Made by a program: the position numbers and the translations under genes
In this document: in pieces, positions 3 to 24,189 of the stretch
Numbering within the stretch: position 1 is the stretch's first letter
Layout of the letters: every line of letters begins with the position of its first letter
Notes under the pieces: model-generated
Database searches by the model: none
Seen by the model: the letters and a program-made list of their open reading frames with translations, nothing else
What the model was told of the DNA's origin: nothing
DNA from: an uncultured Desulfobulbus sp.
GTDB taxonomy: Bacteria > Desulfobacterota > Desulfobulbia > Desulfobulbales > Desulfobulbaceae
Direction of reading: 5' to 3'
Assembly: GCA_964593645.1 (NCBI GenBank)
Contig: CAZQKF010000001.1
Coordinates: 1-28,474 of the forward strand
DNA: 28,474 nucleotides

Positions 3-416
3 ATAACTCCCTTCCATTCAGCAGCTAGTGATATTAGAATTCTCTACGCCGCAGATGGCAATCAGACAATTAACACGACTCCTGCCGAATTGAAATCTTA
101 CGATAGAAATATGAACGCCAATTCTAAAGGTCCTGGACTCTATGCCGGTCTTAACTCACCAAATCCTGGAGCTGGCGAAGCGGATCTTAGTGACCTCAAT
201 ACCAAGGATCATGTCGATATGTACCTCTATGAGGTTGCCTATAACGGCGGTTGGACCATGGTTAATGGAAATGGTACTGACTATGTCGCCAAATTAACGC
301 TCAATTCTGACGGCTCTACGATTATCAATGCCGCTGCCGTACCGGTGCCCGCATCAGTATTGTTGTTTGGCTCCGGTCTGCTTGGCATGCTAGGCATTCG
401 CAGGAAGGAATCCTGA
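3..416 (+). CDS. PEP-CTERM/VPLPA-CTERM-type sorting-domain surface protein, 5'-truncated by the window edge
   Basis: The frame is open from position 3 (ITPFHSAASDIRILY...), so the TTG at 90 is not the true start. The C-terminus VPVPASVLLFGSGLLGMLGIRRKES has a VPxP motif, a hydrophobic helix and a basic RRK tail. Confidence 0.85.
   Translation: MTPFHSAASDIRILYAADGNQTINTTPAELKSYDRNMNANSKGPGLYAGLNSPNPGAGEADLSDLNTKDHVDMYLYEVAYNGGWTMVNGNGTDYVAKLTLNSDGSTIINAAAVPVPASVLLFGSGLLGMLGIRRKES
339..413 (+). other. Exosortase-type C-terminal sorting signal (VPVPA variant)
   Basis: V-P-V-P-A starts at 339, followed by a transmembrane segment with LFGSGLLG and then RRK. Confidence 0.85.
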
Positions 417-489
417 TATCAGGAACATGAAGAGAATAATTACATAAGCAAATTAATCATCTATAAAAAATTATTCATACGAGGGAAAA

Positions 490-1752
490 ATGAAGAAATC
501 TATAGTAAAATCAGCAGTACTTTGTGCCTCTGTCCTTGGTTTGGCCATGAGCGCCAACGCCGCTGTTATCAACCTTAACCTTACCGGCGCCTCTGCCGAG
601 TACACCTTCTGGTCAGCGGCCGCCCATCCGTTCCTGGCCTCTCTGGGCTGCACCGCTATTCAGGATGCCAAAACTGGCAAACAGGGTATTACAATGGGTA
701 CCTGTAACTCCGGCGCCGATACCGTATATATTCGTTATGCCTCCAAGGCCTCTTATGACGGCGTCGTCTCCCAGAAGGGCATTGATCCCTTCAACCAGAC
801 AACCTGTATCGACAAGAGTGAACGTGAATTCGCAGATGAGACCCTTGCTGATTTTTCCACGGGCGCTGTCAATGGTACCAAGTGCCAGCAAGTAACCTTG
901 GGTGCCTCTGATGTTAACGCCGGGACTTTTAATCAACAAAGCCATGGCCAGCTCTTGGGCCCCCTGGGCGGCGGTCAGTATGATCCCTCTTTTAGTGGTA
1001 TTGATGCCAGCGGACTCACTACCTACAACCCCATTGTCGTGCCCTTCAGTTTTTTCAAGACTATCGATGTGCCGACCAATAACATGACCCGCCTGATGGC
1101 CACCCAGATTTTCGGTGGTACGGTTGCCGATTGGGGTGCCTTTAATCCTCTCTGGGCTGGTGTTCCGGTCGCTGCCTGTCTGCGTCACGCCGGTTCCGGC
1201 ACTCACGCCACCCTGGACGCCGCAGTCTTCCGTGGTGAAGCAAAGATGTCTACGACTGAAGATGCATTCGGCTTCTTTGGTCCAGTTACTTATTTCAATG
1301 AGGGATCCAGTGACCTGGTCAGGTGCCTCGAGTGGGCCCATACCAATGGCTACGGCGCAGTCGGCTATAGCGATGTTGACAAGGTTCTTGATGTAAATGG
1401 TCAAATTATCACTGACCCCGCTAATGCCGTGAACGGTGTTATGCAGATGTCCTATCAGGGCGAGCAGGCCGTTAAGAGCAATATCGTCAACGGCGTTTAC
1501 GATTTCTGGTCGTCACAATGGATCTTTGAAGATACCTGTGAAACTATGGTTCCGGCTCCTCTCGGCTGTACAGGTGGTGATGATCCTAAAGGTGTAGCCG
1601 CTGGCGGCGCCCTGCATACCTATATTACCCAGATGATGGCTTTTGCCTCTGACCCAGCTAATATTGCTCTGTCCGGCAAGGGTGATTTCTGGGCCGCTCA
1701 AGGTGAAATGCATGTCAGTAAGGCTTCCGACTGGGCATGGCCTACCCGCTAG
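490..1752 (+). CDS. Secreted periplasmic-binding-protein-fold protein, PstS/DING-like
   Basis: RBS GAGGG at 481-485. Signal peptide ends in ANA|A. N-terminal LTGAS, central GASD and LRHAGSGTH resemble the G-A/S-S/T, G-x-S-D and R-x-x-x-SGT anion-binding segments of PstS-family proteins. There are 8 Cys in the mature part. Confidence 0.6.
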   Translation: MKKSIVKSAVLCASVLGLAMSANAAVINLNLTGASAEYTFWSAAAHPFLASLGCTAIQDAKTGKQGITMGTCNSGADTVYIRYASKASYDGVVSQKGIDPFNQTTCIDKSEREFADETLADFSTGAVNGTKCQQVTLGASDVNAGTFNQQSHGQLLGPLGGGQYDPSFSGIDASGLTTYNPIVVPFSFFKTIDVPTNNMTRLMATQIFGGTVADWGAFNPLWAGVPVAACLRHAGSGTHATLDAAVFRGEAKMSTTEDAFGFFGPVTYFNEGSSDLVRCLEWAHTNGYGAVGYSDVDKVLDVNGQIITDPANAVNGVMQMSYQGEQAVKSNIVNGVYDFWSSQWIFEDTCETMVPAPLGCTGGDDPKGVAAGGALHTYITQMMAFASDPANIALSGKGDFWAAQGEMHVSKASDWAWPTR

Positions 1753-1996: not shown

Positions 1997-2893
1997 ATGA
2001 AATACGAAAAAATCGAACGACAACTCTCCTTTGTCATGCTCCTCGTTTTTTCTGCCCTGCCGATGAGCGGCTGTGCCGCCAATCGGCATCTGAAATCTAC
2101 GACAAGGACTGTACAGGAAAATGAACAGGTTGCGGTCTCCTACACCTGCACTCTGGCAGATGGTAGCCTCGCAATCACCAACCAGCAGCAGGTTGCTGAC
2201 GACCCGGCAATGACCAGATCACCCCTTTTCAGGACGCCGAAGGAGTTTGGCCCGCAGTTTATGACTGCGACCTTAAAACCAATGATTGATCCAACCGGCC
2301 ATACAAAAATTCTTGGTTTTAAATTCAAGAGTTTTGAAGAGGCGGTTACCGAGCAACTTGCCGGTCGCCTGGTTGGGCTGCCCTACGACGAGGTGCGGCA
2401 GGTGCGTCTGAGTTCTACTGTTCCAGATGGTTTAGAAGCCAGGGATCGTTACCTGAAAAGATACCGTAAGACCCGTCATCCAAAAGTGCTCAGGGTTCCT
2501 CTCTGGCAGGTGACCGAGCAGTTGGGAAAAGCCCCGGTTGCCGGGGCTAAATGGCAGGGTAAGGACGGGATCACCTTTATTGTTGACTCGGTGGACGGCA
2601 AAGTCGTCCACCTGCGGCGTCAAATTAAGTCTGGCGCAAAGCTGCAGACACCATTCGGGCCAGCCGAGGTCAGCGATGATGGTGATTCATATACCCTGAA
2701 TATTGATCCAAAGGTGGGCACCGTTGTGCGTAGCGGGCCATTGGTTGGCCGCATATCCAGGGTAAGTGACCAGTCTTTTCAGCTTGATTACGGTAACCCT
2801 TACGGTTTTGAAGATCTTGATTGTCGAGTGCGGATCGAGAGGCCGGACGGCGAAGCCGCAAACGGCGTCGCTTCGAATCCAGTCGTTCAGTAA
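1997..2893 (+). CDS. Lipoprotein, degenerate SlyD-like FKBP-type PPIase/chaperone
   Basis: Lipobox MSGC. VAVSYTCTLADG matches the first FKBP strand. C-terminal DYGNPYGFEDLDCRVRI aligns with SlyD DFNHPLAGKTLxFxVxV. Paralogous to the next gene. Confidence 0.7.
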   Translation: MKYEKIERQLSFVMLLVFSALPMSGCAANRHLKSTTRTVQENEQVAVSYTCTLADGSLAITNQQQVADDPAMTRSPLFRTPKEFGPQFMTATLKPMIDPTGHTKILGFKFKSFEEAVTEQLAGRLVGLPYDEVRQVRLSSTVPDGLEARDRYLKRYRKTRHPKVLRVPLWQVTEQLGKAPVAGAKWQGKDGITFIVDSVDGKVVHLRRQIKSGAKLQTPFGPAEVSDDGDSYTLNIDPKVGTVVRSGPLVGRISRVSDQSFQLDYGNPYGFEDLDCRVRIERPDGEAANGVASNPVVQ

Positions 2894-2920
2894 AACCTAA
2901 GCTGTAAGCTTAAGGTATTT

Positions 2921-2929
2921 CCCCCCCCC
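2921..2929. repeat. Intergenic poly-C tract (C9)
   Basis: Nine consecutive C residues, 31 nt upstream of the ATG at 2961. Confidence 0.9.
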
Positions 2930-2960
2930 GTTTATTCGGGAGTAAGAGGAGTATTGCAAA

Positions 2961-4064
2961 ATGAAACAGAAGATAAACGTCTTTATCCTGATGGTCTTGC
3001 TGCTTGCCATGAGCGGCGGTAGGGCGGACAGCAGGACGAGGCTCGATATGGCCCAGCGGATAGAGGCTGGAGACCTGGCGACGGTTGATTATACGGTCCG
3101 CCTTGCCGACGGAACGTTGGTTGTCTCGACCAGTGATGTTGGGCAGGCGGAAATGGTGGTAGCGGGCAAAAAGGCATTATTTCCGATGCTGGGCAAGGCG
3201 GTAATCGGCATGGAAAAAGACGAAGTAAAACATTTGACTATCTCGCCCGAGTCAGGCTTCGGGCTCTATGACCCGGACCAGGTGAAGACCTTGCCGGTTC
3301 AACAGAAAATCCCCCAAACCGAACAAAAGACTATGGCCGAGGTAAAAAAACGCCTTGGCAGTCCGAAAACAAAGGTCAGGCCCGGCATGGAGGTGCCGCT
3401 TCTGCCCTTTTTCAAGAGCCGGATTATCAAAATAGACGGCCAGACAGTCACTGTCAGCCATCTGGTCAAAGACGGCAGCGAGATCGATACGCCCATTGGC
3501 AAGACCTCTATTAGACTTGCAAACGGCAAAATTGTTCTGACGCTGCACCCCACGATCGGGGCGCCTTTTGTCCGGCAGGGCAAGAAGGGCTTCATTACAG
3601 CTGCCGATGATAGGGAGTTTAGTGTCGATTTTAATCATCCTTTGGCCGGCAAAACCATCAACCTCAATCTCAAGGTACTAAAAATACGCAAAAAGGCTCA
3701 ACTCGCAGACATTGGCCCTATCGAGTGGCAGAAGAATCTGAAAGAGGCCAAAGAGGTAGCCAGAAACAGGCATAAACCAGTTTTCCTGTTTCTGTATGCC
3801 GATTGGTGCCCGTGGTGCAAAAAGCTGGAAACTGATGTGTTGACCGATATTCGCATCAAGATGCTGCAGGATGACTTTGTCTGGGTCAAGGTCAACTCTG
3901 ACAAGGAGCAGAACTATAAGAAGGAGTACCAACAGCGTGGCTTCCCGCTTATCGTGCTGCTCGATGAAGAAGGACAGCCTGTCTCACGGATCGACGGGTT
4001 TCAGGATAGTGCCGCCCTGCGCCGGGGCTTGCTCGGTTGGTTAAACACCAGAAAGAGGGGATAG
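2961..4064 (+). CDS. Exported SlyD-like FKBP-type peptidyl-prolyl isomerase fused to a C-terminal thioredoxin-fold domain
   Basis: RBS GAGGAG and a signal peptide. FKBP motifs GDLATVDYTVRLADG, ISPESGFG and VDFNHPLAGKTINL. Then LFLYADWCPWCKKL (CPWC at 3807-3818) and a GFPLIVLLD cis-Pro loop. Confidence 0.85.
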   Translation: MKQKINVFILMVLLLAMSGGRADSRTRLDMAQRIEAGDLATVDYTVRLADGTLVVSTSDVGQAEMVVAGKKALFPMLGKAVIGMEKDEVKHLTISPESGFGLYDPDQVKTLPVQQKIPQTEQKTMAEVKKRLGSPKTKVRPGMEVPLLPFFKSRIIKIDGQTVTVSHLVKDGSEIDTPIGKTSIRLANGKIVLTLHPTIGAPFVRQGKKGFITAADDREFSVDFNHPLAGKTINLNLKVLKIRKKAQLADIGPIEWQKNLKEAKEVARNRHKPVFLFLYADWCPWCKKLETDVLTDIRIKMLQDDFVWVKVNSDKEQNYKKEYQQRGFPLIVLLDEEGQPVSRIDGFQDSAALRRGLLGWLNTRKRG

Positions 4065-4067
4065 GCA

Positions 4068-5684
4068 ATGGCAGTCAAGCACCAAACAAAGCCTCTCCAG
4101 GTCATCATTTTTATGTTCGGCATCATACTCCCCGCTTTAATCAGGCCAGCGGCTTTACTGTATGCCGCAGATTCCGGCAAGGGTGCCACTTTTGCCATCA
4201 GGTCTTTTAACCTGAAAGGCAACACTATATTTGACGACCTTGCCATGCTGCCGACGCTGCTGCCCTTTATCGGGCCGGACAAGACAGCAGCGGACGTGGA
4301 GGCATCACGAGACGCCGTGGAGAAATTTTATCACGACAAGGGATATCCGGCAGTATTGGTTAACATCCCGGAGCAAACGGTGGACAACGGCGTCATCCGG
4401 CTTGGTATAGTGGAGAGCCGGCTTCGCAAGGTAAGGGTAACCGGCAACAAATACCATACCAGGGAAATGATCATGAAGCAGCTTCCAGCTCTGCAGCCGG
4501 GGGAGATACTTTATTTGCCGGATGTGCAGGCCGAGTTGACTGTAATGAATAGCGATCCTGACATGAAGGTGGCGCCGTTACTGATGCCTGGTCGAGATCC
4601 CGGCACCATCGATATTGAACTCAAGGTTAAGGATAATCTGCCGCTGCATGGCAGTCTTGAGCTTAACAACAGGTACTCGCATGATACCACGAAGCTGCGG
4701 TTGAATGGTTCAATCCGCTACGACAATCTGTGGCAGAAGCATAATTCACTATCCGGCCAGTTTCAGATCTCTCCACAGAGGCTCAATGAGGTTCTTGTTC
4801 TGTCTGCCTCGTATGTCATGCCAGCGCCCTGGAAAAAAGACAATAAGATCATTATGTATGCCATTAGCTCGGACAGTGACACCGCTTTTGGAGAGGGGTT
4901 TCAGGTGAAGGGCAAGGGCCGGATTTACGGAGTAAGATATCTTGTGCCGCTGCCGATATACCAGTCTTACTCTCATAACATTACGATGGGAATAGATTAC
5001 AAGGACTTTGACGAAAGCCTGGGTTTTGCCTCCTCCCCCGGCAATCCAGTGAAAACGCCTATCACCTATATGCCTCTTTCCCTATCGTACAGCAGCCAGC
5101 TGGCCGGGGAAAACGGCTACACCGCCTTCAGCGCTTCTTTAAACATGGCTCTGCGCAATATGGTCACCGACCAGCGTCAGTTTGAGGTCAAACGTTTCCG
5201 GGCCAAGGGCAATTATGTTTACCTCACCCTGGGTGTGGAACAAACAATCAGACTTCCCTATGATTTAGGGCTTTACGCCAAAGTAGATGGCCAGGTCGCC
5301 AGTGAACCGTTGATTGCCAATGAGCAGTACAGTGCCGGTGGCATGGAAAGCGTACGAGGCTATCTGGAAAGCGAGGACTCCGGGGACAATGCGGTACACG
5401 CCACCATGGAGTTGTCGGCTAAACGGCTGGACAGTGCCCTTGATTTCTGGCCCCGGGCATTCTCCCTGACGCCTTATGGCTTTGCCGATTTTGTCCGACT
5501 ATGGACCAAGGAGCCGTTGGCTGGCGAAAAGGATGCCCGTAATCTGGCCTCTATCGGGCTGGGGGCGCGTGGTCAGGCCGGGGCATTCGTATATCGGGGC
5601 GATATTGGTTTGCCATTGGTTGACAGTGGTCGCATTAAAAAAGGCGATTACCTGATCCATTTTAAAATGGCCTACGAATTCTAA
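4068..5684 (+). CDS. TpsB, ShlB/FhaC/HecB-family two-partner secretion outer-membrane transporter
   Basis: Signal peptide; POTRA segment (FNLKGNTIF...YHDKGY...VNIPEQTVDNGVIRLGIVE); barrel entry GSLELNNRYS; loop-6 motif GGMESVRGY; C-terminal Phe (MAYEF). Confidence 0.92.
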   Translation: MAVKHQTKPLQVIIFMFGIILPALIRPAALLYAADSGKGATFAIRSFNLKGNTIFDDLAMLPTLLPFIGPDKTAADVEASRDAVEKFYHDKGYPAVLVNIPEQTVDNGVIRLGIVESRLRKVRVTGNKYHTREMIMKQLPALQPGEILYLPDVQAELTVMNSDPDMKVAPLLMPGRDPGTIDIELKVKDNLPLHGSLELNNRYSHDTTKLRLNGSIRYDNLWQKHNSLSGQFQISPQRLNEVLVLSASYVMPAPWKKDNKIIMYAISSDSDTAFGEGFQVKGKGRIYGVRYLVPLPIYQSYSHNITMGIDYKDFDESLGFASSPGNPVKTPITYMPLSLSYSSQLAGENGYTAFSASLNMALRNMVTDQRQFEVKRFRAKGNYVYLTLGVEQTIRLPYDLGLYAKVDGQVASEPLIANEQYSAGGMESVRGYLESEDSGDNAVHATMELSAKRLDSALDFWPRAFSLTPYGFADFVRLWTKEPLAGEKDARNLASIGLGARGQAGAFVYRGDIGLPLVDSGRIKKGDYLIHFKMAYEF

Positions 5685-5701
5685 CATAACAGGTGATTCT
5701 A

Positions 5702-8700
5702 ATGGTCAGCAAGTCCAAGAAAAAATACAGACTGTTTACTTTGCAGTTAATCATTGCCGCATCCTCGTATCTCTTTCTGCCGTCGCATCTAGAGGCAGCC
5801 CAGAGACTTCCGGCGGGCTATTACGCTGCTCAGAAGGTGCTGAACGGTCTGGTGTTACCGCCGCCAGCCTCCAACGCCCTGCCAAATATCAGGCAGGTGA
5901 TCAGCGGCGTGGCGGGTCTGGAAAAGAATGCGGCGGGTAACCGCCTGACAATTCATCAGAACGGCAAGAAGGCGATTCTCGACTGGAATTCTTTCAACAT
6001 CGGCGCCAATGCCGAAACGGCTTTCGACCAGCAGGGACATGCAAACTGGGCAGCTCTCAATCGGATCTACGACAACGACCCGAGTCAGATCTTTGGCAAA
6101 TTAAAGGCCGACGGCAAGGTCTTTCTGCTCAACCATAACGGCATCCTGTTTGGCCCAGATTCCACAACCAATGTCCATTCCCTGGTCGCCTCTTCTCTGA
6201 ACCTAGATCAAAACGATTTTCTGAATAATATAATGCACTTCAAGACGGCCGCTGGAGTTGGCGAGGCGCCGGGTGCCGTCATTAATCAGGGCAGCATTAC
6301 CACCGACCAGACGGGTTCGGTGTTTCTTATTGGCCCCAGGGTTGAAAACAGCACAGTGCTTGATGGAAACGGCAAAGTTAAAAGCAGCGGCACAATCAAT
6401 GCCCCGGCCGGTCAGATCGGCCTTATTGCCGGTGAGGATGTCACTATTGTGCCAGTGACTGACAAGAATGAGGCTAAAACTCGTCTCGCATCTAAGGTTA
6501 GTATTAACGATGGGCTTGGTACGGCTGTCAACATGGCGCATAGCAGGCTCGAGTCTAAAACCGGGCTTATCGGTATGTACGGTAAGGTAGTTAACCAGGA
6601 AGGCATGATCCGTACCGTGGTGGCTCTTGAGAACCAGAACCGGACGGGTATAGAACTTATGGCCAGTGATCATATAACAACCGGCCCAGACAGTGTCACC
6701 GAGGCCCCCATCTCCACAACAAACAAGACTCAGATTCTCAAATCAAAATTTAAGGGTGGCGATATTTGGTTTGGCGGCCTGTCGTCGGGCAAATACAATA
6801 AGGATACTCGCACAGGCTGGATCAAGCATGAGGGTAAAATTACAGCCCCGACCGGTGTCGTTACCATGAAGGCCGCTCAGAGGATCCTATTGGACTCTGG
6901 TTCTTCCATAGACGTCAGCGGTAACTGGGTCGCTCGACCCATGGAGGATGCCTTTGTTAACGTAAAACTGACCAGTGAGGTGCTACGAGACAATTATGTC
7001 AATAAAAACGGCCCTCTATTTGGCGCTACTATCAGGGTCAATGCCAGAGAAGGCACATCCATAGGCGATATCAGCGGGGCGCTGGCGAGAAGGGAGAATA
7101 CTGCTCTACAGAATAGTACGACCGCCGGCACTATCACCCTGGATGCCTACAGCGGTACTGTAGTCATCAATCCCGGTGCCAGTCTAGACTTTGCTGGTGG
7201 TGGCACGGTCTATAAGTCCGGTCTGGTGGCTACTACCAAACTAGTCGCCAATAATAAGGCTTACGATATTGCCAAGGCCTCAGAGAACCTCATCTATGAA
7301 GGCGTCTTCGGTTATTATGAAAAGAAGTTTGAACGCTATAATACCACTGATGTCTACTCCGGGACATCATACGGCAATGGCACCATGAAATACTTTGAGG
7401 GTTTTACCGAAGGCAGTGATGCCGGCCGTTTGGAAATTACGGCCAATGCGCTGGCCCTGAACGGCAGTCTGAATGGCCATGCCATTGCCGGTATCTATCA
7501 GACCGAGAAGAAGGAAAATGTAAACAGCTTCGAAAAGCTGGTCACCAGAGGCCGCAGGAGGCCGCAGGGTGGTGCATTGACTCTGCAAGGCCCCGCATCC
7601 GGCACACAAAATGTTGTAGATAATTTTGATGCAGTTGTTATAGCCGCTGGCTGGGGAGCCGGGATACGACTATCCATGGACGATTTATTGCCCACTACGA
7701 CTGTTAACGGCATTTCCCAGGCCGCCACCATTCTCCCGGCCGATATGATCAGTTTCGCAGGACTTTCTTATCTGGGTGTTGCCGCCGATACTTCTCTGGA
7801 GATAGACAAGGATGCCGTGCTTCGCCTTGAGGCTGGCGGGGAGCTGACGGGCAGGGCCCGTCTGGTCATCAACCGGGGGGCTATCGATATACCCGGTGGA
7901 ACGGTAAGCCTTTACAGCGATGAAAATATGACCGCTTACCACTCCACTGACCCTGATACTCCCGATAAATATATTGACATGCCAGAGGGGATCGTGCTCA
8001 CCAATACCAGCCGCATCGATGTCTCGGGGGAGGAAATAGACAACCGACAGGTCGGTCAAATTGCAAATGGTGAACTGCGGCATGGAATTATTGCCGGGGG
8101 TAAGGTTTCACTTCATGACGAAATCGACTACACCCGCAGCGACGGCCAATTAGTGATCGACAAGGGGGCCGTGGTGGATGTCTCGGGCGGCTACGAGATT
8201 ACAACGAAGGGCGAACTACTGGGCGGCAATGGCGGCCAGATCGACCTTCAGGGCACCGCTATAGTGCAGGAAGGTATCCTGCGTGGTCGTTCCCTCGCCG
8301 GGTCTTCTGGCGGTACTATTGCCTTGCACAGCGAACGGGTTCTGATTGGTGGCAAGGTTCCGGAACTGCCGGGTAACAACGACGGCCCCCAACCACTGCC
8401 GGTTGACTTTTTCGCCGGCTATCTGCCCGAGAATCTTAAGGGCGGCCCAATAGATGAAACGGCACCGGGGCGGGCCAGGGGCCTGGTGCTGGATCCCGAT
8501 AAACTTCGTGATTCCGGTTTCGCCAATATAATAGTGAAAAGCGTTGGAGATCTTTTTGTGCAGAGCGGCACCGAACTTTCTCCCTCGGCCTCAAAAAATG
8601 CCTCTCCGTTGCGAAATACACCAGTATCCGCCAGGAATGGTGGTGCACAACAGGAACCAGAAGTGGTGCAGATGGAGGAAGACCTGCTTGGCCCAACCTC

Positions 8701-17950: not shown

Positions 17951-18357
17951 AACATCGAGATTTATTTGACGCAAAAGTATCTGATGATATCAACGTAACA
18001 CCATTACTTGATCTTGCCTGGACTCTGCTCGTCGTGTTCATCATTGCGGTCACCGCCTCCGTTCAGGGGATAAAGGTCAATATCCCCAAGGCTAGTGATT
18101 CCCCTAGTCTGCAAAAACCGAAAACCAAGGCTATCTCCATTATGGATAAAGGCCAGATTTATCTCGATGCCTACCCCGTGAGCATGGAGGAACTAGAGAC
18201 GTTGCTGCGGCAATACAAGGCGGCTGATCCCGATCTGCCAGTGGTGATCAAGGGAGATGCAAAGGTGTACTATCAGCAAATCGTTTCGGTGCTTGATCTC
18301 CTGCAGCGCCTGGATATCACCCAGCTAGGTCTGGTGACCCAGCGGTTGGTTAAATGA
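17947..18357 (+). CDS. exbD: ExbD/TolR-family biopolymer transport protein
   Basis: ATGA overlap with exbB. INVTPLLDLAWTLLVVFII carries the conserved transmembrane Asp. VVIKGDAKVYYQQIVSVLD matches the C-terminal domain. Confidence 0.93.
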   Translation: MKHRDLFDAKVSDDINVTPLLDLAWTLLVVFIIAVTASVQGIKVNIPKASDSPSLQKPKTKAISIMDKGQIYLDAYPVSMEELETLLRQYKAADPDLPVVIKGDAKVYYQQIVSVLDLLQRLDITQLGLVTQRLVK

Positions 18358-18414: not shown

Positions 18415-19104
18415 ATGTCTAAAAAAAAGAAGCATAATAAACATATTCCCAAAGGTCTTGTGATTGGCCTAATCCTTGTTGTTGTATTGGCGATGTTGGC
18501 CGCTGGCTTTGTGCTTATTAAGCAGTTGGTCACCGATGATGGTCATAAACGGCAGCGTCAGATCCAGAAGATCACTTTGGTCAAGCCTCCCGAGCCCCCG
18601 AAGATCAAGGAGAAACCGCCTGAGCCTGTGCATAAAAAGGAAAAGGTGATCGAGCAGCAGCAGAAAGAGGTGCCGAAGCCGCAGGAAGCCAAGGCCGACA
18701 ACGAGCCACCTCCCGGCGATGAGCTGGGCCTTGATGCTGAAGGCAGCGGCAGCGGCGACTCATTCGGTTTGAAGGCGAGAAAGGGGGGCAGGGCGCTCAT
18801 CGGCGGTAATGGTGGTGGCACTGGCTACGGTTGGTACACCAAGCGGATCGCCGATGAGCTGCAGCAATTGGTTAACAAACTTGTCCGGGACAAAGGCGGG
18901 ATCAAGGAAAAGGGCTTGAAAACCGAGATTCGGATCAAGCTGGATGATGTTGGCCGGATAGTGGATTTTACCATTATCGGCCCATCTGGAAACAATGAAC
19001 TGGATAACGCAGTTCGGCTGGCGCTAACGTCGGCCCAGCTCAGCGATCCGCCGCCCTATGGTATGTCCCGGGTGCTTAAGTTTAGGATCAGACCCAAAGG
19101 TTGA
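18415..19104 (+). CDS. TonB/TolA-like energy transducer
   Basis: Single N-terminal transmembrane helix, a Pro/Lys/Glu-rich linker (KPPEPPKIKEKPPEP), and a C-terminal domain with IKLDDVGRIVDF...SGNNELDNAVRLAL. Lies directly after exbBD. Confidence 0.85.
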   Translation: MSKKKKHNKHIPKGLVIGLILVVVLAMLAAGFVLIKQLVTDDGHKRQRQIQKITLVKPPEPPKIKEKPPEPVHKKEKVIEQQQKEVPKPQEAKADNEPPPGDELGLDAEGSGSGDSFGLKARKGGRALIGGNGGGTGYGWYTKRIADELQQLVNKLVRDKGGIKEKGLKTEIRIKLDDVGRIVDFTIIGPSGNNELDNAVRLALTSAQLSDPPPYGMSRVLKFRIRPKG

Positions 19105-19220: not shown

Positions 19221-20771
19221 ATGTTACGGAAGATATTAAAAAAAAGCATTATCGTGGGGTTGTGCGGCGGCTTGCTGCTGGTGCCTTGCCGGGGAAAAGC
19301 GGCGGAAGAGAGCACATCGAGCGGCCTTGAAGCCCTGATTCAACTACTCAAGGAAAAAAAGGTCGTTTCAGGCGAGGAGGCAGCCCGTTTCACCAGGAAG
19401 TTACGGCAAACCGAGCGGCAGGAAGAGACAAAAAAGGTGATAACCATAATCCCCCGGGGCCAAATGTATATGAAGCAGCTTACTGATACGGTGGCAGCCG
19501 ACATTAAGGATCAGGTCAAGGATCAGGTCAAGTATGAGATAAAGGACGAGGTGGTTCGGGAGATAAAGCTGGGAGAAAGGACGGGGCCAGTGCCCTCATG
19601 GACCCAGCGTATACGATGGGGCGGCGATATCCGTCTGCGGCACCAGCAGGATCTATTCGATAAGGAAAACGGCCTCGTACAGAACCCCAGCGATCCGGAC
19701 TTTCTTTTGAATAGCACAGCCAACCGGACTCGTGAGCGCATCAGGGTCAGGGTCGCCTTGAAGGCGGAGGTCAATGATCAGGTAGAGGTCGGGGTACGAC
19801 TGTCCAGTGGCAACGAAAGAGAACCAGTTTCCACTAACGATACCTTGGGAGATTACTTAAACAAAGACGGTTTTGTCCTTGATCAAGCTTTTATTCGCTG
19901 GGTGCCGATACCCGAGGTTACCCTGCTGGGTGGCAGGATGCCGAACCCCTTTTTCTCAAGTGATCTGGTCTGGGACGGAGACGTTAATTTTGAGGGCATC
20001 GCCGTTCAGATTAATAAGCCGCTAGTTGGAATTTGGCGCAGCTTTGCCAATCTTGGTTATTTCCCCATCCAGGAGGTGGCGCTTTCCCAGCATGACAAAT
20101 ACATGATTGGCACCCAGGTGGGACTCGAGTACGAGCCGCGCCCTGAAATCCTCGGCAAATTCGGGATCGCCTACTATGATTATCACAATATTACCGGCGT
20201 TTCGAATACTGCAAACAATACTGGTTATTTCGATTATACATTGCCTGCCTTTCGGCAATGGGGCAATGATTATTACGATATCAACACTTTTGTCAGCACT
20301 GCAGGTACCCCGGTGGCCTATGGACTGGATTCCGAGTTCAGACTGCTGAACCTCACCATGTCCCTCGATGTGGCTCTCTTCACTCCAGTCGATATAGCCC
20401 TGAAACTGGACTACGTTACTAATCTGGCTTTTGACCATGACGAGATTCTGAAACGCACTGGCGAATCACTAGACAGGGAGACGGATGGCTTTATGGTGGG
20501 GCTGGCGGTGGGTTACTCTAAAGTTACCCATCTTGGCGAGTGGAAAACCTCCATTGCCTATAAGTATCTTGAGAAAAATGCTGTACTCGATGCCTTTACC
20601 GATTCAGATTTTCATCTGGGCGGCACTAACGCCAAGGGCTGGATAATCGGTGTTGATGTCGGTCTGTACGATAATACATGGGCCACCGCCCGCTGGCTGA
20701 GTAGTGATGTGATTTCCGGGGTACCATACTCCATTGACACATTGCAGATAGATTTGAATACCCGTTTCTAG
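19221..20771 (+). CDS. Putative outer-membrane porin (Porin_5-like) with N-terminal helical extension
   Basis: Signal peptide; LIQLLKEKKVVSGEEA motif; barrel start WTQRIRWGGDIRLR; DSDFHLGGTN; terminal beta-signal TLQIDLNTRF. Confidence 0.8.
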   Translation: MLRKILKKSIIVGLCGGLLLVPCRGKAAEESTSSGLEALIQLLKEKKVVSGEEAARFTRKLRQTERQEETKKVITIIPRGQMYMKQLTDTVAADIKDQVKDQVKYEIKDEVVREIKLGERTGPVPSWTQRIRWGGDIRLRHQQDLFDKENGLVQNPSDPDFLLNSTANRTRERIRVRVALKAEVNDQVEVGVRLSSGNEREPVSTNDTLGDYLNKDGFVLDQAFIRWVPIPEVTLLGGRMPNPFFSSDLVWDGDVNFEGIAVQINKPLVGIWRSFANLGYFPIQEVALSQHDKYMIGTQVGLEYEPRPEILGKFGIAYYDYHNITGVSNTANNTGYFDYTLPAFRQWGNDYYDINTFVSTAGTPVAYGLDSEFRLLNLTMSLDVALFTPVDIALKLDYVTNLAFDHDEILKRTGESLDRETDGFMVGLAVGYSKVTHLGEWKTSIAYKYLEKNAVLDAFTDSDFHLGGTNAKGWIIGVDVGLYDNTWATARWLSSDVISGVPYSIDTLQIDLNTRF

Positions 20772-20790
20772 CGGCAAGAGGAATACTGAC

Positions 20791-21495
20791 ATGAAAAAAA
20801 TTATTAATGTTTTGGTAGTGTTGCTTGTCCTGGTCGGCTTCGGGACAGCAGGATATATGAAGTTGCAGCTCGCAAGGGAAAAGAAAATGTCGGCAGATGT
20901 TGAGCTACAGTTGGAGAAGCTTCAAGCCAGAAATACCGGTTTGCATCAGAAATATCTGGAACAAAAAGCCATCGCTTCTGGTCTTATGAGGAGTAAACAG
21001 GCGGTCGAGAGTAATCAACGCAGGGGTGAGGAGAAGATTGAGCAGCTTCAGGCCGAAAAGGATAAGCTGCTGGCGGCAATCAAAAAGCAGGATTTGAAAT
21101 CTGAAAAGGCACTGCAGGATATGCAGAAAAAACTCAAAGGTCTGGCTGTCGAAAAAGAGGAATGTGCCGAAACCATCAAGAAAAGTCAGGAAGATGTTGT
21201 AGCTTTAAAGAATGTAATAACCGCCAAGGAAGCAAAGATAACTGATCTTGAACGCCGGAAAACACAGGCATTGGCAAAATTTTCCTCCACCGATTCCCGT
21301 CTTACTATCTGTGCTGGAAACAATCTCAAACTACGAGATATCGCCAACGAACTAGCCGAGTTGTATAAGAATAAGGGAGTTGTCGGGGCTATCTTTGATG
21401 AAGAACGGTTGATTCAGTACCGCCAGGTAGAGATTGAAAAATTGTTGCAGGAGTATGATGAGCGCATTGACAAACTGCAGTATTCCCTTCATTAA
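20791..21495 (+). CDS. Membrane-anchored or exported coiled-coil protein of unknown function
   Basis: N-terminal hydrophobic segment, ~150 aa of K/E/Q/L-rich heptads, and a C-terminal block CAGNNLKL...LYKNKG...EERLIQYRQVEIEKLLQEY. Confidence 0.8.
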   Translation: MKKIINVLVVLLVLVGFGTAGYMKLQLAREKKMSADVELQLEKLQARNTGLHQKYLEQKAIASGLMRSKQAVESNQRRGEEKIEQLQAEKDKLLAAIKKQDLKSEKALQDMQKKLKGLAVEKEECAETIKKSQEDVVALKNVITAKEAKITDLERRKTQALAKFSSTDSRLTICAGNNLKLRDIANELAELYKNKGVVGAIFDEERLIQYRQVEIEKLLQEYDERIDKLQYSLH

Positions 21496-21506
21496 CAGCT
21501 TGTTTC

Positions 21507-22184
21507 ATGAGGCGCTATTTTGGGGCCGTGGCCGTTGGACTGGCACTTTTCGCCGCCCAGCAGGTGCATGGTAAGTTGGTGGTGATGCCTGAAGGAGGTG
21601 ATATGGAAACAATTACCGATAAATACGGTCAAGCGGCCTCCAGACGCATCACTGCATGGATGAACCTGGTGAAGGATGCCCGAAAGCTGGTAACCAGAGA
21701 AAAACTGGAACAGGTCAATAGCTTTTTTAATCGCCTTCCGAACGTCTCCGATATCCAGCAATGGCAGGTCAATGATTATTGGGAAACTCCCTTTGAACTG
21801 CTCATTGTTAATGGCGGTGATTGTGAGGACTTTGTTATTGCAAAGTATTTTACCTTGAGGGAGTTGGGTATTCCAGAGGAAAGGATGCGCATCGCCTATG
21901 TTAAGGCCTTTATGTCTGACCGATCCATCGTCTCACACATGGTTCTCACCTATTATTCGTGCCTACAATGTGAGCCGCTTATACTTGATAATCTTACCGA
22001 TTCCATCCAGTCCTCCTCAAGTCGAAAGGATCTGGTGCCCGTCTACAGTTTTCAGGGTTATGATTTGATCAGTTCCAGGGAAAAAAAGGAAAATTTGGTC
22101 AACAATACCGCAGAAAAAGGCATACCGCGTTGGGATGAGTTGCTGCAACGCATAGAAGTTCAGGAAAAGATCCTGGAAAAATGA
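21507..22184 (+). CDS. lapG: LapG-like periplasmic transglutaminase-like cysteine protease (BTLCP)
   Basis: Signal peptide; LEQVNSFFN; DYWETPFE; GDCEDFVIAKYFTL (Cys at 21822); HMVL; ILDNL. The Cys-His-Asp triad is present and the gene is adjacent to lapD. Confidence 0.92.
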   Translation: MRRYFGAVAVGLALFAAQQVHGKLVVMPEGGDMETITDKYGQAASRRITAWMNLVKDARKLVTREKLEQVNSFFNRLPNVSDIQQWQVNDYWETPFELLIVNGGDCEDFVIAKYFTLRELGIPEERMRIAYVKAFMSDRSIVSHMVLTYYSCLQCEPLILDNLTDSIQSSSSRKDLVPVYSFQGYDLISSREKKENLVNNTAEKGIPRWDELLQRIEVQEKILEK

Positions 22185-22242
22185 TGAAGAAGGTTGCCGC
22201 TAAATCCGTAATCGGATTTACATCAGATAAGGCCCAAAAACG

Positions 22243-24189
22243 ATGAGATTTACATTTACCGCTATTATTTTTCTTTCCTTGCTTATGCTGATTCTTTTTT
22301 CTGGGGCAGTGTCAATCTCTTTGAAGATATCACAGGGGTATCTTACGAAACAGCTTGATGATCATGCCCAGGATACCGCTACAGCTCTGGCCGCTGTCCT
22401 CAATCAGGCGCTTGCGAAAGAGGATAGGGTTATGGTTCAGACACTATTGCGGGCACTTGTCGATCACGGACAGTACAACAGCATGGTAGTGTTACGTCAC
22501 GGCAAGAAGTTCATCGCCGTACGGCGGGAAATGAAAGATCTCGCAGGAGTGCCGGCCTGGTTTATGGAGCTGCTGCCGATGAGTGTTTCGCCGTGCCATG
22601 CTGAAATTTTTAATGGCTGGCGGAAGATAGGTCGGATAAGTGTCAGCAGTTATACCGGCATCGTCTATGAACAGCTCTGGCAGATTTGTAAAAATATCTT
22701 GCTGCTTTTCGGGGTTGTCTGGATGGTTGCTTACCTGCTTTTGGCCGGGCTTCTCGCCTTACTGCTGGTGCCTCTCAAGCAAATGGAAAGACAGGCTATC
22801 CAGATTGGCAGCAGAAATTTTGCCGTGAATCCGAGAAAACCCTGGTTCAAGGAATTCTCTACTACTGTCGATGCTTTAAACCTGATGTCTGTAACCATCA
22901 GTAAAATATTAGCTGATCAGGCTGTCGTTATTGAAAATCTACGCTGCCAGGCCAGTCGAGACCATGTCACAAACCTCGATATTTTTGAATATTTTCGGCA
23001 CGATGGTTCCGGATGCGCAAAAACTTATCCAACGGATGGCAAAAGGGCAGCCATTTCGCTGCAAATAACCGGGCTTAACGAGATCAACCGCAGGATCAAC
23101 AGGGCGTACGGGGACAGGGTAATAAGACTTCTTGCCGATATCTTCAGCAGTTGCTGTAAACGCATTGATCCACAGTGTTTGGTCTGCCGGGTTGCTGGGG
23201 CTGGTCTCTTTGCGGTGCTTGCGGCGGGAGGTGTTGATGAGTTAAAAAAACATCTCCCGTTCATGGTTGCTGCACTCCGGAAAGATCTGCCTTGCCCCGC
23301 CGATGAAATCATTGGCGTGAGAGCTGGAGCCTTTTTTTGTGATGCTGCCCAATCACTAGCTGAACTCCACCTTAAGGCGGAAAGGGTTGTCGCAACAATT
23401 GTGCTGCCCTGGCAGTGGAGAGTGCAGGCGATGGATGAAGTGGAAACAAATGTTGTCGGTAGGGGGGAAGGAATTGAGAGTCTTATCAATGGCAAAATTA
23501 CTACCGGCGATTTTGAACTTACCTCTGTTCGGGTAACGTATTTGTCAGATAACGGTATGGATCATCATGAATTGCTCCTGACACTGGATGATGGCAAGGG
23601 GGAAAAGTTGCGGGCTGGTCTGCTTTTGCCTGTTGCTGGGAGGCTTGGTCTCCTCCAGACTCTAGACCGTAAGGTGATGGAGAAGGTGTTTCTTCTGCTC
23701 TGTGCCGAGGCAAAAAAAGCATGCTATGCGGTGAATGTGAGCACCGTCTCGTTATTGGAGGAAGAGTTCCAGCAATGGCTGCTTGACAAGCTGAACTTGT
23801 TGACGGAAGAACAAAGAGGAAGGCTGCTACTCGAAACCTCCGAATCTCTGTGCGGTATGCACGGTGTGGCTACTTTTGTGCCATGGCTTGGAAAAATAAG
23901 GGGACTTGGATGTAAATTCGGTTTTGATCATTTTGGCATTCATCCCGAGGGCTTAACCATGTTACCGATTATACAGCCTGATTATGTAAAGATCGATCGT
24001 AGCCTGCTGATCGACATTACCCACGAGGCGGCATTCGGCAATCTTGTCCGTACCTTGTCCTCTACAGTACATGGATTTGGAATTACCTGCATTGCGCCGC
24101 TTATGAGTCTGGAGACGGACAGGCAGGTTCTGGTCTCACTGGGTGTTGACGGAGTTGTAGAGCCGATTGCGGCGGCGGAACCTGGCTAG
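22243..24189 (+). CDS. lapD: LapD-like inner-membrane receptor (periplasmic output domain, HAMP, degenerate GGDEF, degenerate EAL)
   Basis: QLDDHAQDTATAL; VPAWFMELLP; GWRK loop (22615-22626); second transmembrane helix and HAMP; DHVTNL; RVAGAGLF in place of GGDEF; FGFDHFG and PDYVKIDRS. Confidence 0.88.
   Translation: MRFTFTAIIFLSLLMLILFSGAVSISLKISQGYLTKQLDDHAQDTATALAAVLNQALAKEDRVMVQTLLRALVDHGQYNSMVVLRHGKKFIAVRREMKDLAGVPAWFMELLPMSVSPCHAEIFNGWRKIGRISVSSYTGIVYEQLWQICKNILLLFGVVWMVAYLLLAGLLALLLVPLKQMERQAIQIGSRNFAVNPRKPWFKEFSTTVDALNLMSVTISKILADQAVVIENLRCQASRDHVTNLDIFEYFRHDGSGCAKTYPTDGKRAAISLQITGLNEINRRINRAYGDRVIRLLADIFSSCCKRIDPQCLVCRVAGAGLFAVLAAGGVDELKKHLPFMVAALRKDLPCPADEIIGVRAGAFFCDAAQSLAELHLKAERVVATIVLPWQWRVQAMDEVETNVVGRGEGIESLINGKITTGDFELTSVRVTYLSDNGMDHHELLLTLDDGKGEKLRAGLLLPVAGRLGLLQTLDRKVMEKVFLLLCAEAKKACYAVNVSTVSLLEEEFQQWLLDKLNLLTEEQRGRLLLETSESLCGMHGVATFVPWLGKIRGLGCKFGFDHFGIHPEGLTMLPIIQPDYVKIDRSLLIDITHEAAFGNLVRTLSSTVHGFGITCIAPLMSLETDRQVLVSLGVDGVVEPIAAAEPG

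What the first reader, a model, noticed from the sequence alone, without database searches (positions are those of the whole stretch)
3..24189. Candidate new envelope system: TPS adhesin + ExbBD/TonB motor + porin + dedicated foldases + LapGD release switch + CTERM/PstS-like cargo
Seen: 13 co-oriented genes, nearly all with export signals or membrane anchors, with short gaps in two blocks (1997-15916 and 16151-24189). Established (from recall): P. aeruginosa has a phosphate-starvation region with DING-type lapA/lapB, TPS pair pdtA/pdtB, exbB2/exbD2, a TonB-like gene, a putative porin and a PPIase, whose joint function is unresolved. Inference: this is a distant version of that machine with a different parts list (FKBP rather than parvulin PPIase, a thioredoxin fusion, a CTERM-sorted protein, lapG/lapD). 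No ECF sigma/anti-sigma, T2SS or TonB-dependent receptor is in the window. Working model: one machine folds, exports, energises and proteolytically releases a giant surface protein.
Basis: partly seen in the sequence, partly recalled or inferred. Interest (0 to 1): 0.85.

Follow-up and report, generated by a model that had tools for sequence, protein, structure and literature searches.

The report
PdtAB-type secretion cassette plus LapGD
This is a Desulfobacterota copy of a widespread but unexplained gene set, already on record in Pseudomonas aeruginosa, that pairs a giant secreted fibre with a private proton-driven motor and a porin; the one new feature is a LapG/LapD protease switch attached to it.

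Summary
It is not a new system. The core is TpsB, a 3407-aa TpsA with a DUF3739 end, DUF2341-LamG-ExbB, ExbD, a TonB-like protein, Porin_5 and a coiled-coil protein. This core recurs in about 80 Desulfobacterota/Nitrospirota/Geobacter loci, in Verrucomicrobia, and in 80 named Pseudomonas, Bordetella, Achromobacter and Alcanivorax loci. A Klebsiella plasmid copy has the same gene order the literature gives for P. aeruginosa PA0692-PA0701 (pdtB-exbB2-exbD2-tonB4-PA0696...). This scan has already filed the cassette at least 30 times on other DNA.

The chaperone slot is filled differently in different lineages: FKBP/FKBP-thioredoxin here, parvulin or Skp elsewhere. A PstS-like gene recurs nearby.

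What is new is lapG-lapD fused to the 3' end. This is seen only in four genomes. None of the four has a LapA retention module or its T1SS secretion signal, and three show no HlyD-type T1SS adaptor. That points to a target within the cassette. However, no LapG-type site is conserved, and the DAAG in TpsA looks compositional.

A fold test gave only weak support for the TonB-like domain gripping the last strand of TpsA. The function of the cassette remains inferred.

The parts
3..416 (+). PEP-CTERM sorting-signal protein (5' end runs off the contig)
   Evidence: PF07589 E 3.7e-5 and TIGR03370/TIGR02595. It is paired with the PstS-like gene beside the cassette in L081/L082, L076 and several Syntrophobacteraceae loci.
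490..1752 (+). Exported PstS-like (phosphate-binding-fold) protein with 8 Cys
   Evidence: TIGR02136 E 1.4e-5. PDB 4exl PstS1 E 1.2e-7 with an aligned R-x-AGSG(T/S) loop. A terminator-like hairpin follows at 1812-1828. It recurs near the cassette.
1997..2893 (+). Lipoprotein paralogue of the FKBP/insert module, with diverged active-site segments
   Evidence: No Pfam hit. BLASTP to the next gene gives E 1e-9 over 273 columns. LPMSGC lipobox. An orthologue is present in L076.
2961..4064 (+). Exported split SlyD/SlpA-type FKBP fused to a CPWC thioredoxin domain
   Evidence: FKBP_C E 2.6e-8 and Thioredoxin_7 E 5e-17. PDB matches to 4dt4, SlyD and DsbD-gamma. Orthologues lie in the cassettes of L076 and L027.
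4068..5684 (+). TpsB outer-membrane transporter
   Evidence: POTRA_2 E 1.4e-14 and ShlB E 7.8e-19. 34-49% identical to TpsB in the related cassettes.
5693..15916 (+). TpsA exoprotein, 3407 aa, no cysteine
   Evidence: TPS domain E 2.3e-19, TIGR01901, and DUF3739 at residues 3226-3342. It is the only TPS domain found in the 74.5%-complete genome.
15716..15916 (+). TpsA C-terminal tail: flexible Gly/Ala/Ser linker, helix, then the terminal strand KWLSVEFTGFGSK
   Evidence: The tail pattern is conserved in 72 homologues and in the Pseudomonas-type Klebsiella copy. The model shows a disordered linker at 3342-3367, a helix at 3364-3391 and a loose end. Residues 3395-3407 form the predicted interface with the TonB-like domain (weak support).
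16151..17950 (+). ExbB-type proton-channel subunit with a roughly 340-aa periplasmic DUF2341 + LamG head
   Evidence: MotA_ExbB E 1.1e-26, Laminin_G_3 E 5e-19 and DUF2341 E 1.6e-11. The same architecture is found in the Klebsiella/Pseudomonas-type protein.
17947..18357 (+). ExbD/TolR subunit
   Evidence: PF02472 E 4e-26. It overlaps exbB by 4 nt.
18415..19104 (+). TonB-like protein: N-terminal anchor, Pro/Lys-rich spacer, C-terminal domain
   Evidence: TonB_2 E 7.9e-10. Sequence features seen.
19221..20771 (+). Porin_5 outer-membrane barrel with an N-terminal periplasmic helical stalk
   Evidence: PF16930 E 6.5e-132. AlphaFold model: barrel at 131-516, stalk at 34-120. Nearest folds are OmpM1, MOMP, PorB, AlgE and OprP, and there is no plug. 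The N-terminus carries the conserved motifs EALIxLLKxKGxIS and VITIIP.
20791..21495 (+). Membrane-anchored coiled-coil protein with a conserved C-terminal module (family at the PA0697 position)
   Evidence: No Pfam hit. Present in 52 related loci. hhalign against the Pseudomonas family that follows the porin: probability 98%, E 2.3e-13.
21507..22184 (+). LapG-type periplasmic cysteine protease
   Evidence: Peptidase_C93 E 2.7e-13. NF045674 scores 187 bits, below its 320-bit cut-off. PDB 4u65_E E 3e-43, with GDCED, His and Asp retained.
22243..24189 (+). LapD-type inner-membrane receptor with degenerate GGDEF and EAL domains
   Evidence: LapD_MoxY_N E 1.2e-28 and EAL E 1.6e-24. The GW loop aligns to 4u64. 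The Arg of the ExLxR motif is Thr here and in L001/L002, but is kept in L003.

Best explanation
The window carries one copy of the PdtAB-type two-partner-secretion cassette.

SHOWN, by homology and by recurrence in permuted gene orders: a conserved unit made of TpsB, a giant TpsA with a DUF3739 end and a conserved C-terminal tail, an ExbB with a DUF2341-LamG periplasmic head, ExbD, a TonB-like protein, a stalked plug-less Porin_5 barrel and a membrane-anchored coiled-coil protein. A periplasmic foldase accompanies this unit. Here the foldase is two FKBPs, one fused to thioredoxin; elsewhere it is a SurA-like parvulin or Skp.

INFERRED mechanism:
1. The foldases keep the cysteine-free 3407-aa TpsA export-competent.
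2. TpsB threads it out.
3. The flexible linker leaves the last ~45 residues (a helix plus a terminal strand) in the periplasm as a tether.
4. The proton-driven ExbB/ExbD/TonB-like motor acts on that tether, or on the porin stalk, to hold, tension or release the fibre.

In this small clade lapG-lapD were added to the 3' end of the operon. The genomes lack LapA-type substrates, so LapG most likely cuts a cassette component, TpsA being the best candidate by analogy with CdrA. LapD would hold LapG back in response to an inner signal. That step is inferred from linkage only.
For: Domains.

Co-occurrence around ExbB-fusion homologues in 80 loci: TpsA 73, ExbD 78, TonB 73, Porin_5 63, coiled coil 45. 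Most of the misses lie at contig ends.

The same set occurs in other gene orders: L076, L027, L005/L020 and Verrucomicrobia L123-L133.

Link to Pseudomonas:
- The Klebsiella plasmid NZ_CP065459.1 reads ExbB-ExbD-TonB-porin-hyp-YbjN-PPIase-hyp-LysR, with a decayed tpsA/tpsB upstream. This equals the PA0692-PA0701 order in PMC7035377.
- 80 named Pseudomonas/Bordetella/Achromobacter loci carry TpsB, ExbB and ExbD in 80/80 and Porin_5 in 78/80.
- The coiled-coil protein is homologous to the family at the PA0697 position.

Chaperone slot: SurA_N+PpiC, OmpH or FKBP.

Tail: conserved in 72 homologues and modelled as linker-helix-loose end.

TonB-like C-terminal domain against the tail: ipSAE 0.45, best control 0.00, interface at TpsA 3395-3407. 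The verdict is 'weak support'. The mark is reached by 51 of 78 solved complexes and 2 of 108 mismatched pairs. At 0.60 or under, only 5 of those 78 solved complexes reach it, as did all 4 mismatches that passed, out of 180.

lapGD:
- Intact LapG triad and the LapD GW loop.
- Fused to the cassette in G000, G010, G128 and G042, which fall in three GTDB families and have different downstream flanks.
- None of these genomes has retention_LapA or T1SS_VCA0849.
- G000, G010 (99% complete) and G128 have no HlyD-type T1SS adaptor.

Precedent: LapG releases the TPS adhesin CdrA by a cut near its C-terminus (PMC4694147).
Against: No experiment links the motor, the porin or LapG to TpsA in any organism. 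In P. aeruginosa the tonB4 and PA0696 mutants showed no virulence phenotype (PMC2729926).

No [T/A/P]AAG site is positionally conserved in TpsA or in any other cassette protein among the lapGD-bearing genomes. The window's DAAG reads GATG, GAVG and DTAV in the orthologues. Motifs of the form xAA[G/V] occur in 21 of 68 lapGD-less tails against 1 of 4 lapGD-bearing ones.

TpsA has no Cys pair like CdrA.

The complex prediction is weak. The family is one where beta-strand pairing is easily modelled.

An earlier check in this scan states that PdtA itself lacks the tail motif. I could not verify that.

LapD lacks the ExLxR arginine in three of four copies.

The lapGD link is one evolutionary event in four genomes. 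G000 is only 74.5% complete.
Confidence: 0.55

Rival explanations
1. The cassette is a nutrient-scavenging device, probably for phosphate, not an adhesin-handling machine. The fibre and the PstS-like protein capture a substrate at the surface. The TonB-like motor gates the stalked Porin_5 channel for uptake. LapGD only trims the fibre or is unrelated.
For: - In P. aeruginosa the homologous genes belong to the PhoB/VreI phosphate-starvation regulon. They sit next to the secreted PstS/DING-type LapA (PMC7035377, PMC9769906, PMC2242829).
- PstS-like genes recur beside the cassette here, in L081/L082, in L076 and in other Syntrophobacteraceae loci.
- A PBP_like_2 protein and phoU lie beside the TPS pair and porin on a Methylomagnum plasmid.
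- The porin's N-terminal stalk carries a conserved strand, VITIIP, in the position where a TonB box would sit.
- OprP is among the fold matches.
Against: - The porin N-terminus gave no confident interface with the TonB-like domain. Replacing the TpsA tail abolished the score.
- The porin model has no plug.
- PstS-like genes are absent from most of the loci examined.
- No pstCAB genes or phosphatase lie in the window.
Confidence: 0.25
2. lapG-lapD are functionally independent passengers. They regulate a different surface protein encoded elsewhere, and they merely share a transcript or an insertion site with the TPS cassette.
For: - No conserved LapG-type site exists in any cassette protein.
- lapGD accompany the cassette only in one small clade. 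The nearest relative, L004/G029, and roughly 150 other cassettes lack them.
- LapG homologues are common elsewhere in the order, in 67 of 151 genomes, and there they are not linked to the cassette.
- G042 has a T1SS adaptor on another contig.
- Giant repetitive adhesins often fail to assemble in MAGs.
Against: - None of the four genomes has retention_LapA or T1SS_VCA0849, and no HlyD-type T1SS adaptor was found in G000, G128 or the 99%-complete G010.
- The tight junction to the coiled-coil gene has been kept while TpsA diverged to 37% identity and the downstream flanks changed.
Confidence: 0.3
3. The genes are unrelated neighbours that happen to be co-oriented. There is no joint function.
For: Only that no experiment has shown a joint function. 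There is also a 234-nt gap and a possible separate promoter between tpsA and exbB.
Against: The same gene families recur together in several phyla and in at least four different gene orders.
Confidence: 0.03

Closest known systems
Pseudomonas aeruginosa PA0690-PA0699: pdtA, phdA, pdtB, exbB2, exbD2, tonB4, PA0696 (putative porin), PA0697, PA0698 (YbjN), PA0699 (PpiC PPIase), with the PstS/DING-type lapA/lapB upstream (PMC2729926, PMC7035377, PMC2242829)
   Same: Shared parts are TpsA, TpsB, a DUF2341-LamG ExbB, ExbD, a TonB-like protein, Porin_5, a coiled-coil protein, a periplasmic PPIase and a PstS-family neighbour. Homology was shown through named Pseudomonas-group loci and through a Klebsiella plasmid copy with the identical gene order. 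In both cases the function of the motor and the porin is unknown.
   Different: Here the gene order is foldases-tpsB-tpsA-motor. The PPIase is FKBP or FKBP-thioredoxin rather than parvulin. There is no phdA, YbjN, LysR, Hxc T2SS or VreAIR system. lapG-lapD are appended. The P. aeruginosa sequences themselves were not in hand.
P. aeruginosa CdrA/CdrB with LapG/LapD (PMC4694147; Cooley et al. 2016, as cited in PMC13090378)
   Same: A type Vb adhesin is controlled by a periplasmic LapG and an inner-membrane LapD. The cut is proposed about 50 residues from the TpsA C-terminus; the window's DAAG lies 58 residues from the end.
   Different: CdrA is unrelated in its tail and has a C-terminal cysteine pair; this TpsA has none. 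In P. aeruginosa lapGD are not linked to cdrAB. The di-alanine here is not conserved in the orthologues. No motor or porin accompanies cdrAB.
Lap system of P. fluorescens and Dvh system of Desulfovibrio vulgaris (LapA/DvhA T1SS adhesins, LapG/DvhG, LapD/DvhD; PMC13090378)
   Same: LapG has an intact C-H-D triad and the Ca-binding GDCED segment. LapD has the LapG-binding GW loop, a HAMP-like linker and degenerate GGDEF-EAL domains.
   Different: No T1SS, no retention module and no helix-DP-[T/A/P]AAG signature were found in the genome. The LapD ExLxR arginine is replaced.
Salmonella SPI4 SiiAB with the giant adhesin SiiE (bioRxiv 10.1101/641415; 10.1101/2021.05.14.443827)
   Same: A giant surface adhesin is encoded together with a MotAB/ExbBD-like proton channel that controls its retention and function rather than nutrient uptake.
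   Different: SiiE uses a type I secretion system. SiiAB are not homologous in architecture to DUF2341-ExbB/ExbD/TonB. No porin or TpsB is involved. This is an analogy only.
Canonical ExbB-ExbD-TonB with TonB-dependent transporters
   Same: A proton-channel pair works with a TonB-like protein that has a Pro/Lys-rich spacer and a C-terminal domain. Candidate beta-strand partners are present.
   Different: There is no 22-strand plugged receptor. ExbB carries a large periplasmic lectin-like head. The candidate TonB-box strands sit on a secreted protein's C-terminus and on a porin stalk.

Membership tests
Two-partner secretion (type Vb) | TpsA with an N-terminal TPS domain | tested here: met
   PF05860 E 2.3e-19 and TIGR01901 E 2.9e-20.
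Two-partner secretion (type Vb) | Adjacent Omp85-type TpsB with POTRA domains and a ShlB barrel | tested here: met
   POTRA_2 and ShlB. An 8-nt gap separates it from tpsA.
PdtAB-type TPS-motor-porin cassette (P. aeruginosa PA0690-PA0699) | ExbB with a DUF2341-LamG head, plus ExbD, next to tpsB/tpsA | tested here: met
   Homologues in named Pseudomonas-group loci are 33-36% identical over the full length. The Klebsiella copy has the same three Pfam domains.
PdtAB-type TPS-motor-porin cassette (P. aeruginosa PA0690-PA0699) | Porin_5 barrel after the TonB-like gene | tested here: met
   PF16930 E 6.5e-132. Present in 78 of 80 Pseudomonas-group loci.
PdtAB-type TPS-motor-porin cassette (P. aeruginosa PA0690-PA0699) | Coiled-coil protein at the PA0697 position | tested here: met
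   hhalign probability 98%, E 2.3e-13 over 210 columns.
PdtAB-type TPS-motor-porin cassette (P. aeruginosa PA0690-PA0699) | TonB4-like protein | tested here: inconclusive
   A TonB_2 domain is present in the same position. tblastn found no direct similarity to the Pseudomonas-type protein.
PdtAB-type TPS-motor-porin cassette (P. aeruginosa PA0690-PA0699) | PpiC-type PPIase and YbjN protein downstream | tested here: not met
   Neither is in the window. FKBP-type foldases lie upstream instead. The parvulin is present in the Nitrospirota and Verrucomicrobia copies.
PdtAB-type TPS-motor-porin cassette (P. aeruginosa PA0690-PA0699) | Induction by phosphate starvation (PhoB/VreI) | not testable with these tools
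   No expression data are available. The only hint is the neighbouring PstS-like gene.
Lap system (LapG/LapD/LapA) | LapG with the Cys-His-Asp triad and a Ca site | tested here: met
   Alignment to 4u65_E and 4fgo_A retains GDCED, H and D. The NCBIfam equivalog score is 187, below its 320 cut-off.
Lap system (LapG/LapD/LapA) | LapD periplasmic domain with the LapG-binding Trp loop | tested here: met
   LapD_MoxY_N E 1.2e-28. GW aligns to the GW of 4u64.
Lap system (LapG/LapD/LapA) | LapD EAL domain able to bind c-di-GMP (ExLxR arginine) | tested here: inconclusive
   The motif reads ELLLT here and ELHLT in L001/L002, but KLHLR in L003. Binding itself cannot be tested with these tools.
Lap system (LapG/LapD/LapA) | T1SS adhesin substrate with an N-terminal retention module and a [T/A/P]AAG site | tested here: not met
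   NF033682 and TIGR03661 were not found in G000, G010, G128 or G042. No HlyD-type adaptor was found in G000, G010 or G128. No DP...[TAP]AAG candidate is convincing. G000 is only 74.5% complete.
CdrAB-type LapG-released TPS adhesin | Di-alanine LapG site in the periplasmic C-terminal tail of TpsA | tested here: inconclusive
   DAAG is present at residues 3346-3349. It is not conserved in the three orthologues and is no commoner than in lapGD-less tails.
CdrAB-type LapG-released TPS adhesin | C-terminal cysteine pair that retains the adhesin in TpsB | tested here: not met
   TpsA contains no cysteine.
TonB-dependent transport | 22-strand plugged receptor with an N-terminal TonB box | tested here: not met
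   None is in the window. The Porin_5 model is a plug-less porin-type barrel.

The most novel reading that the evidence does not exclude
Type Vb secretion, thought to need no energy at the outer membrane, is coupled here to a proton-driven motor. The TonB-like protein grips the conserved terminal strand of the periplasmic TpsA tether. In this clade a LapD-gated LapG, with a non-canonical site preference, cuts that tether. Fibre tension or retention and fibre release would then be two separately controlled steps of one machine.
Probability: 0.12. Interest if true: 0.85.

Novelty: new variant of a known kind. Interest (0 to 1): 0.5.

Why it matters
The core cassette is present in hundreds of species across at least four phyla, including an important pathogen. 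Even so, nobody knows why a two-partner secretion system needs a private ExbB/ExbD/TonB motor and a stalked porin.

This copy adds two clues:
1. The foldase slot is interchangeable (FKBP-thioredoxin, parvulin or Skp). That argues the giant fibre's passage through the periplasm is the shared problem.
2. A LapG/LapD switch has been recruited in genomes that lack any LapA-type substrate. That argues part of the cassette stays in the periplasm as a cleavable tether.

If confirmed, it would widen the range of LapG targets and give a handle on the motor's role. The gain over what is already recorded is modest, because the cassette itself is in print and has been found repeatedly in this scan.

Tried and rejected
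1. DAAG (TpsA 3346-3349) and TAAG (185-188) as conserved LapG sites: rejected. Neither is kept in the M19, Dive96 or MAG125 orthologues. Such motifs are as common in lapGD-less tails.
2. A conserved di-alanine in any other cassette protein of the four lapGD genomes: only helix-internal or signal-peptide sites turned up, and none is convincing.
3. A genome-wide DP...[TAP]AA[GV] scan of G000: nine hits, none in a large exported protein.
4. A LapA-type substrate or T1SS elsewhere: not found. Absence from a 74.5%-complete MAG is weak evidence on its own.
5. The porin N-terminal stalk as the partner of the TonB-like domain: it gave no confident interface in the three-chain fold. The score fell to 0.00 when the TpsA tail was replaced. 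This is no evidence against binding.
6. Mis-binning of the contig: GC content and tetranucleotide profile fit the rest of the bin. The patchy distribution is therefore better read as gene transfer or loss.
7. Single-protein pattern scans with the FKBP-thioredoxin protein and with TpsB found few distant loci.
8. The sigma-70 promoter and terminator scan was not enriched over shuffles, apart from the hairpin after the PstS-like gene.
9. The control genomes of the genome search do not include P. aeruginosa, so they could not test the Pseudomonas link.
10. The P. aeruginosa locus itself was not among the 80 loci returned, so PdtA's own C-terminus could not be read.

Full report
**What is there**

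The window is a whole 28.5-kb contig of a 2.84-Mb, 613-contig, 74.5%-complete MAG of the Desulfobacterota.
- a PEP-CTERM protein;
- a weakly PstS-like exported protein, whose phosphate-loop segment aligns to PstS1 of PDB 4exl;
- a lipoprotein that is a diverged paralogue of the next gene's FKBP module;
- a split SlyD/SlpA-type FKBP fused to a CPWC thioredoxin;
- TpsB;
- a 3407-aa cysteine-free TpsA with DUF3739 near its end;
- an ExbB with a DUF2341-LamG periplasmic head, then ExbD and a TonB_2 protein;
- a Porin_5 barrel;
- a membrane-anchored coiled-coil protein;
- LapG and LapD.

**The core is a conserved unit**

Homologues of the ExbB fusion were found in 154 genome stretches, of which 80 were fetched. 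Within 10 kb of them, tblastn finds TpsA in 73, ExbD in 78, TonB in 73, Porin_5 in 63 and the coiled-coil protein in 45. Most misses lie at contig ends.

The set survives rearrangement:
- L076 (Syntrophobacteraceae) reads TpsB-ExbB-ExbD-TonB-porin-coiled coil, then PEP-CTERM-PstS-like-FKBP-FKBP/Trx-TpsA.
- L027 reads ExbB-ExbD-TonB-TpsB-porin-FKBP/Trx-TpsA.
- L005 and L020 put TpsB after TpsA.
- Verrucomicrobial loci read TpsB-motor-porin-coiled coil-parvulin-TpsA.

De novo clustering of the neighbours shows a variable chaperone slot:
- a SurA_N+PpiC parvulin in Nitrospirota, Geobacter and Verrucomicrobia;
- an OmpH/Skp protein plus an unknown 314-aa protein in Desulfobacterales;
- FKBPs in this lineage and in Syntrophobacteraceae.

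The PEP-CTERM/PstS-like pair also recurs beside the cassette in Syntrophobacteraceae. In the closest relatives it borders a polysaccharide-export locus. Its membership of the cassette is therefore plausible but not settled.

**It is the Pseudomonas cassette**

The literature gives the P. aeruginosa order as pdtA-phdA-pdtB-exbB2-exbD2-tonB4-PA0696 (putative porin)-PA0697-PA0698 (YbjN)-PA0699 (PpiC PPIase)-PA0701 (LysR). It calls the Ton part uncharacterised and notes the TPS/ExbBD/PA0696 association in other proteobacteria (PMC7035377, PMC2729926).

A Klebsiella pneumoniae plasmid, NZ_CP065459.1, carries exactly that order. Its ExbB has DUF2341, LamG and MotA_ExbB domains. Its porin is 30% identical to the window's over 95% of the length. 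Its ExbD is 53% identical. A decayed tpsA/tpsB pair lies upstream.

Using its ExbB as bait returned 80 named Pseudomonas (fluorescens group), Bordetella, Achromobacter, Alcanivorax and Janthinobacterium loci. The window's TpsB, ExbB and ExbD hit all 80 and its porin hits 78. The coiled-coil family aligns to the family at the PA0697 position with 98% probability.

PA0688/LapA, next to pdtA, belongs to the PstS/DING family (PMC2242829). This parallels the PstS-like gene here. This scan has filed the same cassette at least 30 times in at least 25 other genomes. A later check on one of those reports marked the gene row as already in print.

**Anatomy bearing on mechanism**

The last ~65 residues of TpsA follow a pattern kept in 72 homologues and in the Pseudomonas-type plasmid copy. 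The beta-helix ends in NAQNIsFs-G-VGVP. A Gly/Ala/Ser linker follows, then a helix, then the strand KWLxVxVxxF, often with an acidic tail after it. The AlphaFold model shows the linker as disordered, then a helix at 3364-3391 and a loose end.

The porin model is a plug-less barrel (residues 131-516). It resembles OmpM1, MOMP, PorB, AlgE and OprP. Its N-terminal helical stalk carries two conserved motifs, EALIxLLKxKGxIS and VITIIP.

A three-chain fold tested the TonB-like C-terminal domain against the porin stalk and the TpsA tail together. It gave ipSAE 0.45 with a best control of 0.00. The interface lies at TpsA 3395-3407, and the score is lost when the tail is replaced. The verdict is weak support. 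The mark is reached by 51 of 78 solved complexes and 2 of 108 mismatched pairs. At 0.60 or under, only 5 of those 78 solved complexes reach it, as did all 4 mismatches that passed, out of 180. This fits a motor-grips-tether model but does not establish it.

**The LapG/LapD add-on**

LapG is intact. It scores E 3e-43 against the P. fluorescens protein of 4u65, with GDCED, His and Asp kept. LapD keeps the LapG-binding GW loop. It has Thr in place of the ExLxR arginine here and in two orthologues, while the third keeps Arg.

In a sample of 151 genomes of the order, LapG homologues occur in 67 and the Porin_5 cassette in 16. The two lie together only in G010, G128 and G042, which are the genomes of L001-L003, and in the window. 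These four fall in three GTDB families. The same-genus genome G135, 96% complete, has neither gene.

The junction to the coiled-coil gene stays at 11-24 nt even though TpsA has diverged to 37% identity and the downstream flank differs. The contig's composition fits its bin.

None of the four genomes has the LapA retention module or the VCA0849-type T1SS signal. G000, G128 and the 99%-complete G010 show no HlyD-type T1SS adaptor. A canonical Lap substrate is therefore unlikely, and a cassette component is the natural candidate. The CdrA precedent supports this: LapG is proposed to cut that TPS adhesin about 50 residues from its C-terminus (PMC4694147).

Against this, the window's DAAG and TAAG are not conserved in the orthologues. 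No other cassette protein has a convincing shared di-alanine. Motifs of the form xAA[G/V] are found in 21 of 68 lapGD-less tails against 1 of 4 lapGD-bearing ones. TpsA also lacks CdrA's cysteine pair. The release step is inferred from linkage alone.

**Verdict**

The locus is a real and conserved cassette of a known, unexplained kind. This copy is a new variant in two respects: FKBP-thioredoxin foldases, and an embedded LapG/LapD pair without a recognisable substrate site. The identification is secure. The mechanism remains a hypothesis, namely foldase-assisted export, a periplasmic tether engaged by the motor, and LapG-mediated release.

Noticed in passing
window 24391-25320 (+): A 309-aa lipoprotein with no Pfam or NCBIfam hit. 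It has two internal repeats of an F-V-W-x-Y...Y-(V/I)-(I/L)-G motif. A 61%-identical copy lies beside the lapGD-bearing cassette in L002, on the other strand.
   Followed up: partly
window 25342-25890 (-): A receiver-only response regulator of 182 aa with an N-terminal extension. A weak homologue (29% identity) follows lapD in L001 and L002, so it may be a regulator tied to the locus.
   Followed up: no
window 19300-19600 (Porin_5 residues 27-125): The periplasmic stalk of the porin has two motifs conserved across the family. One is a helix, EALIxLLKxKGxIS-EEA. The other is a TonB-box-like strand, VITIIP. The nearest solved fold is OmpM1, itself a stalked porin that attaches the outer membrane.
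   Followed up: partly
L154 (Klebsiella pneumoniae plasmid NZ_CP065459.1, 1-13800): An IncFIB/IncHI1B clinical plasmid carries a 61%-GC Pseudomonas-type PdtAB cassette. Its tpsA is fragmented and its tpsB frameshifted, while the motor, porin, YbjN, PPIase and LysR genes are intact.
   Followed up: partly
L155 (Methylomagnum ishizawai plasmid NZ_AP019784.1): TpsA, TpsB and a 528-aa PBP_like_2 binding protein face a Porin_5 gene that is followed by cax and phoU. No ExbB/ExbD lies within 18 kb, so this looks like a motor-less variant with a phosphate link.
   Followed up: no
L081/L082 1-6100 (upstream of the PEP-CTERM gene in the closest relatives): A polysaccharide-export set lies directly upstream, where the window's contig ends: an outer-membrane barrel, a Wzz/GNVR chain-length determinant and a tyrosine-kinase-like ATPase. 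The same trio follows the cassette in L023 and L072 and precedes TpsB in L131.
   Followed up: partly
G000 versus G135, G010, G128, G042: The cassette's closest relatives (65-80% protein identity) are in other GTDB families, while the same-genus genome lacks it. The composition of the contig fits its bin. This suggests lateral transfer within the order.
   Followed up: partly
window 22243-24189 (LapD): The cytoplasmic half is unusually rich in cysteine. It lacks the ExLxR arginine in three of four orthologues, which raises the question of whether this LapD reads c-di-GMP or another signal.
   Followed up: partly
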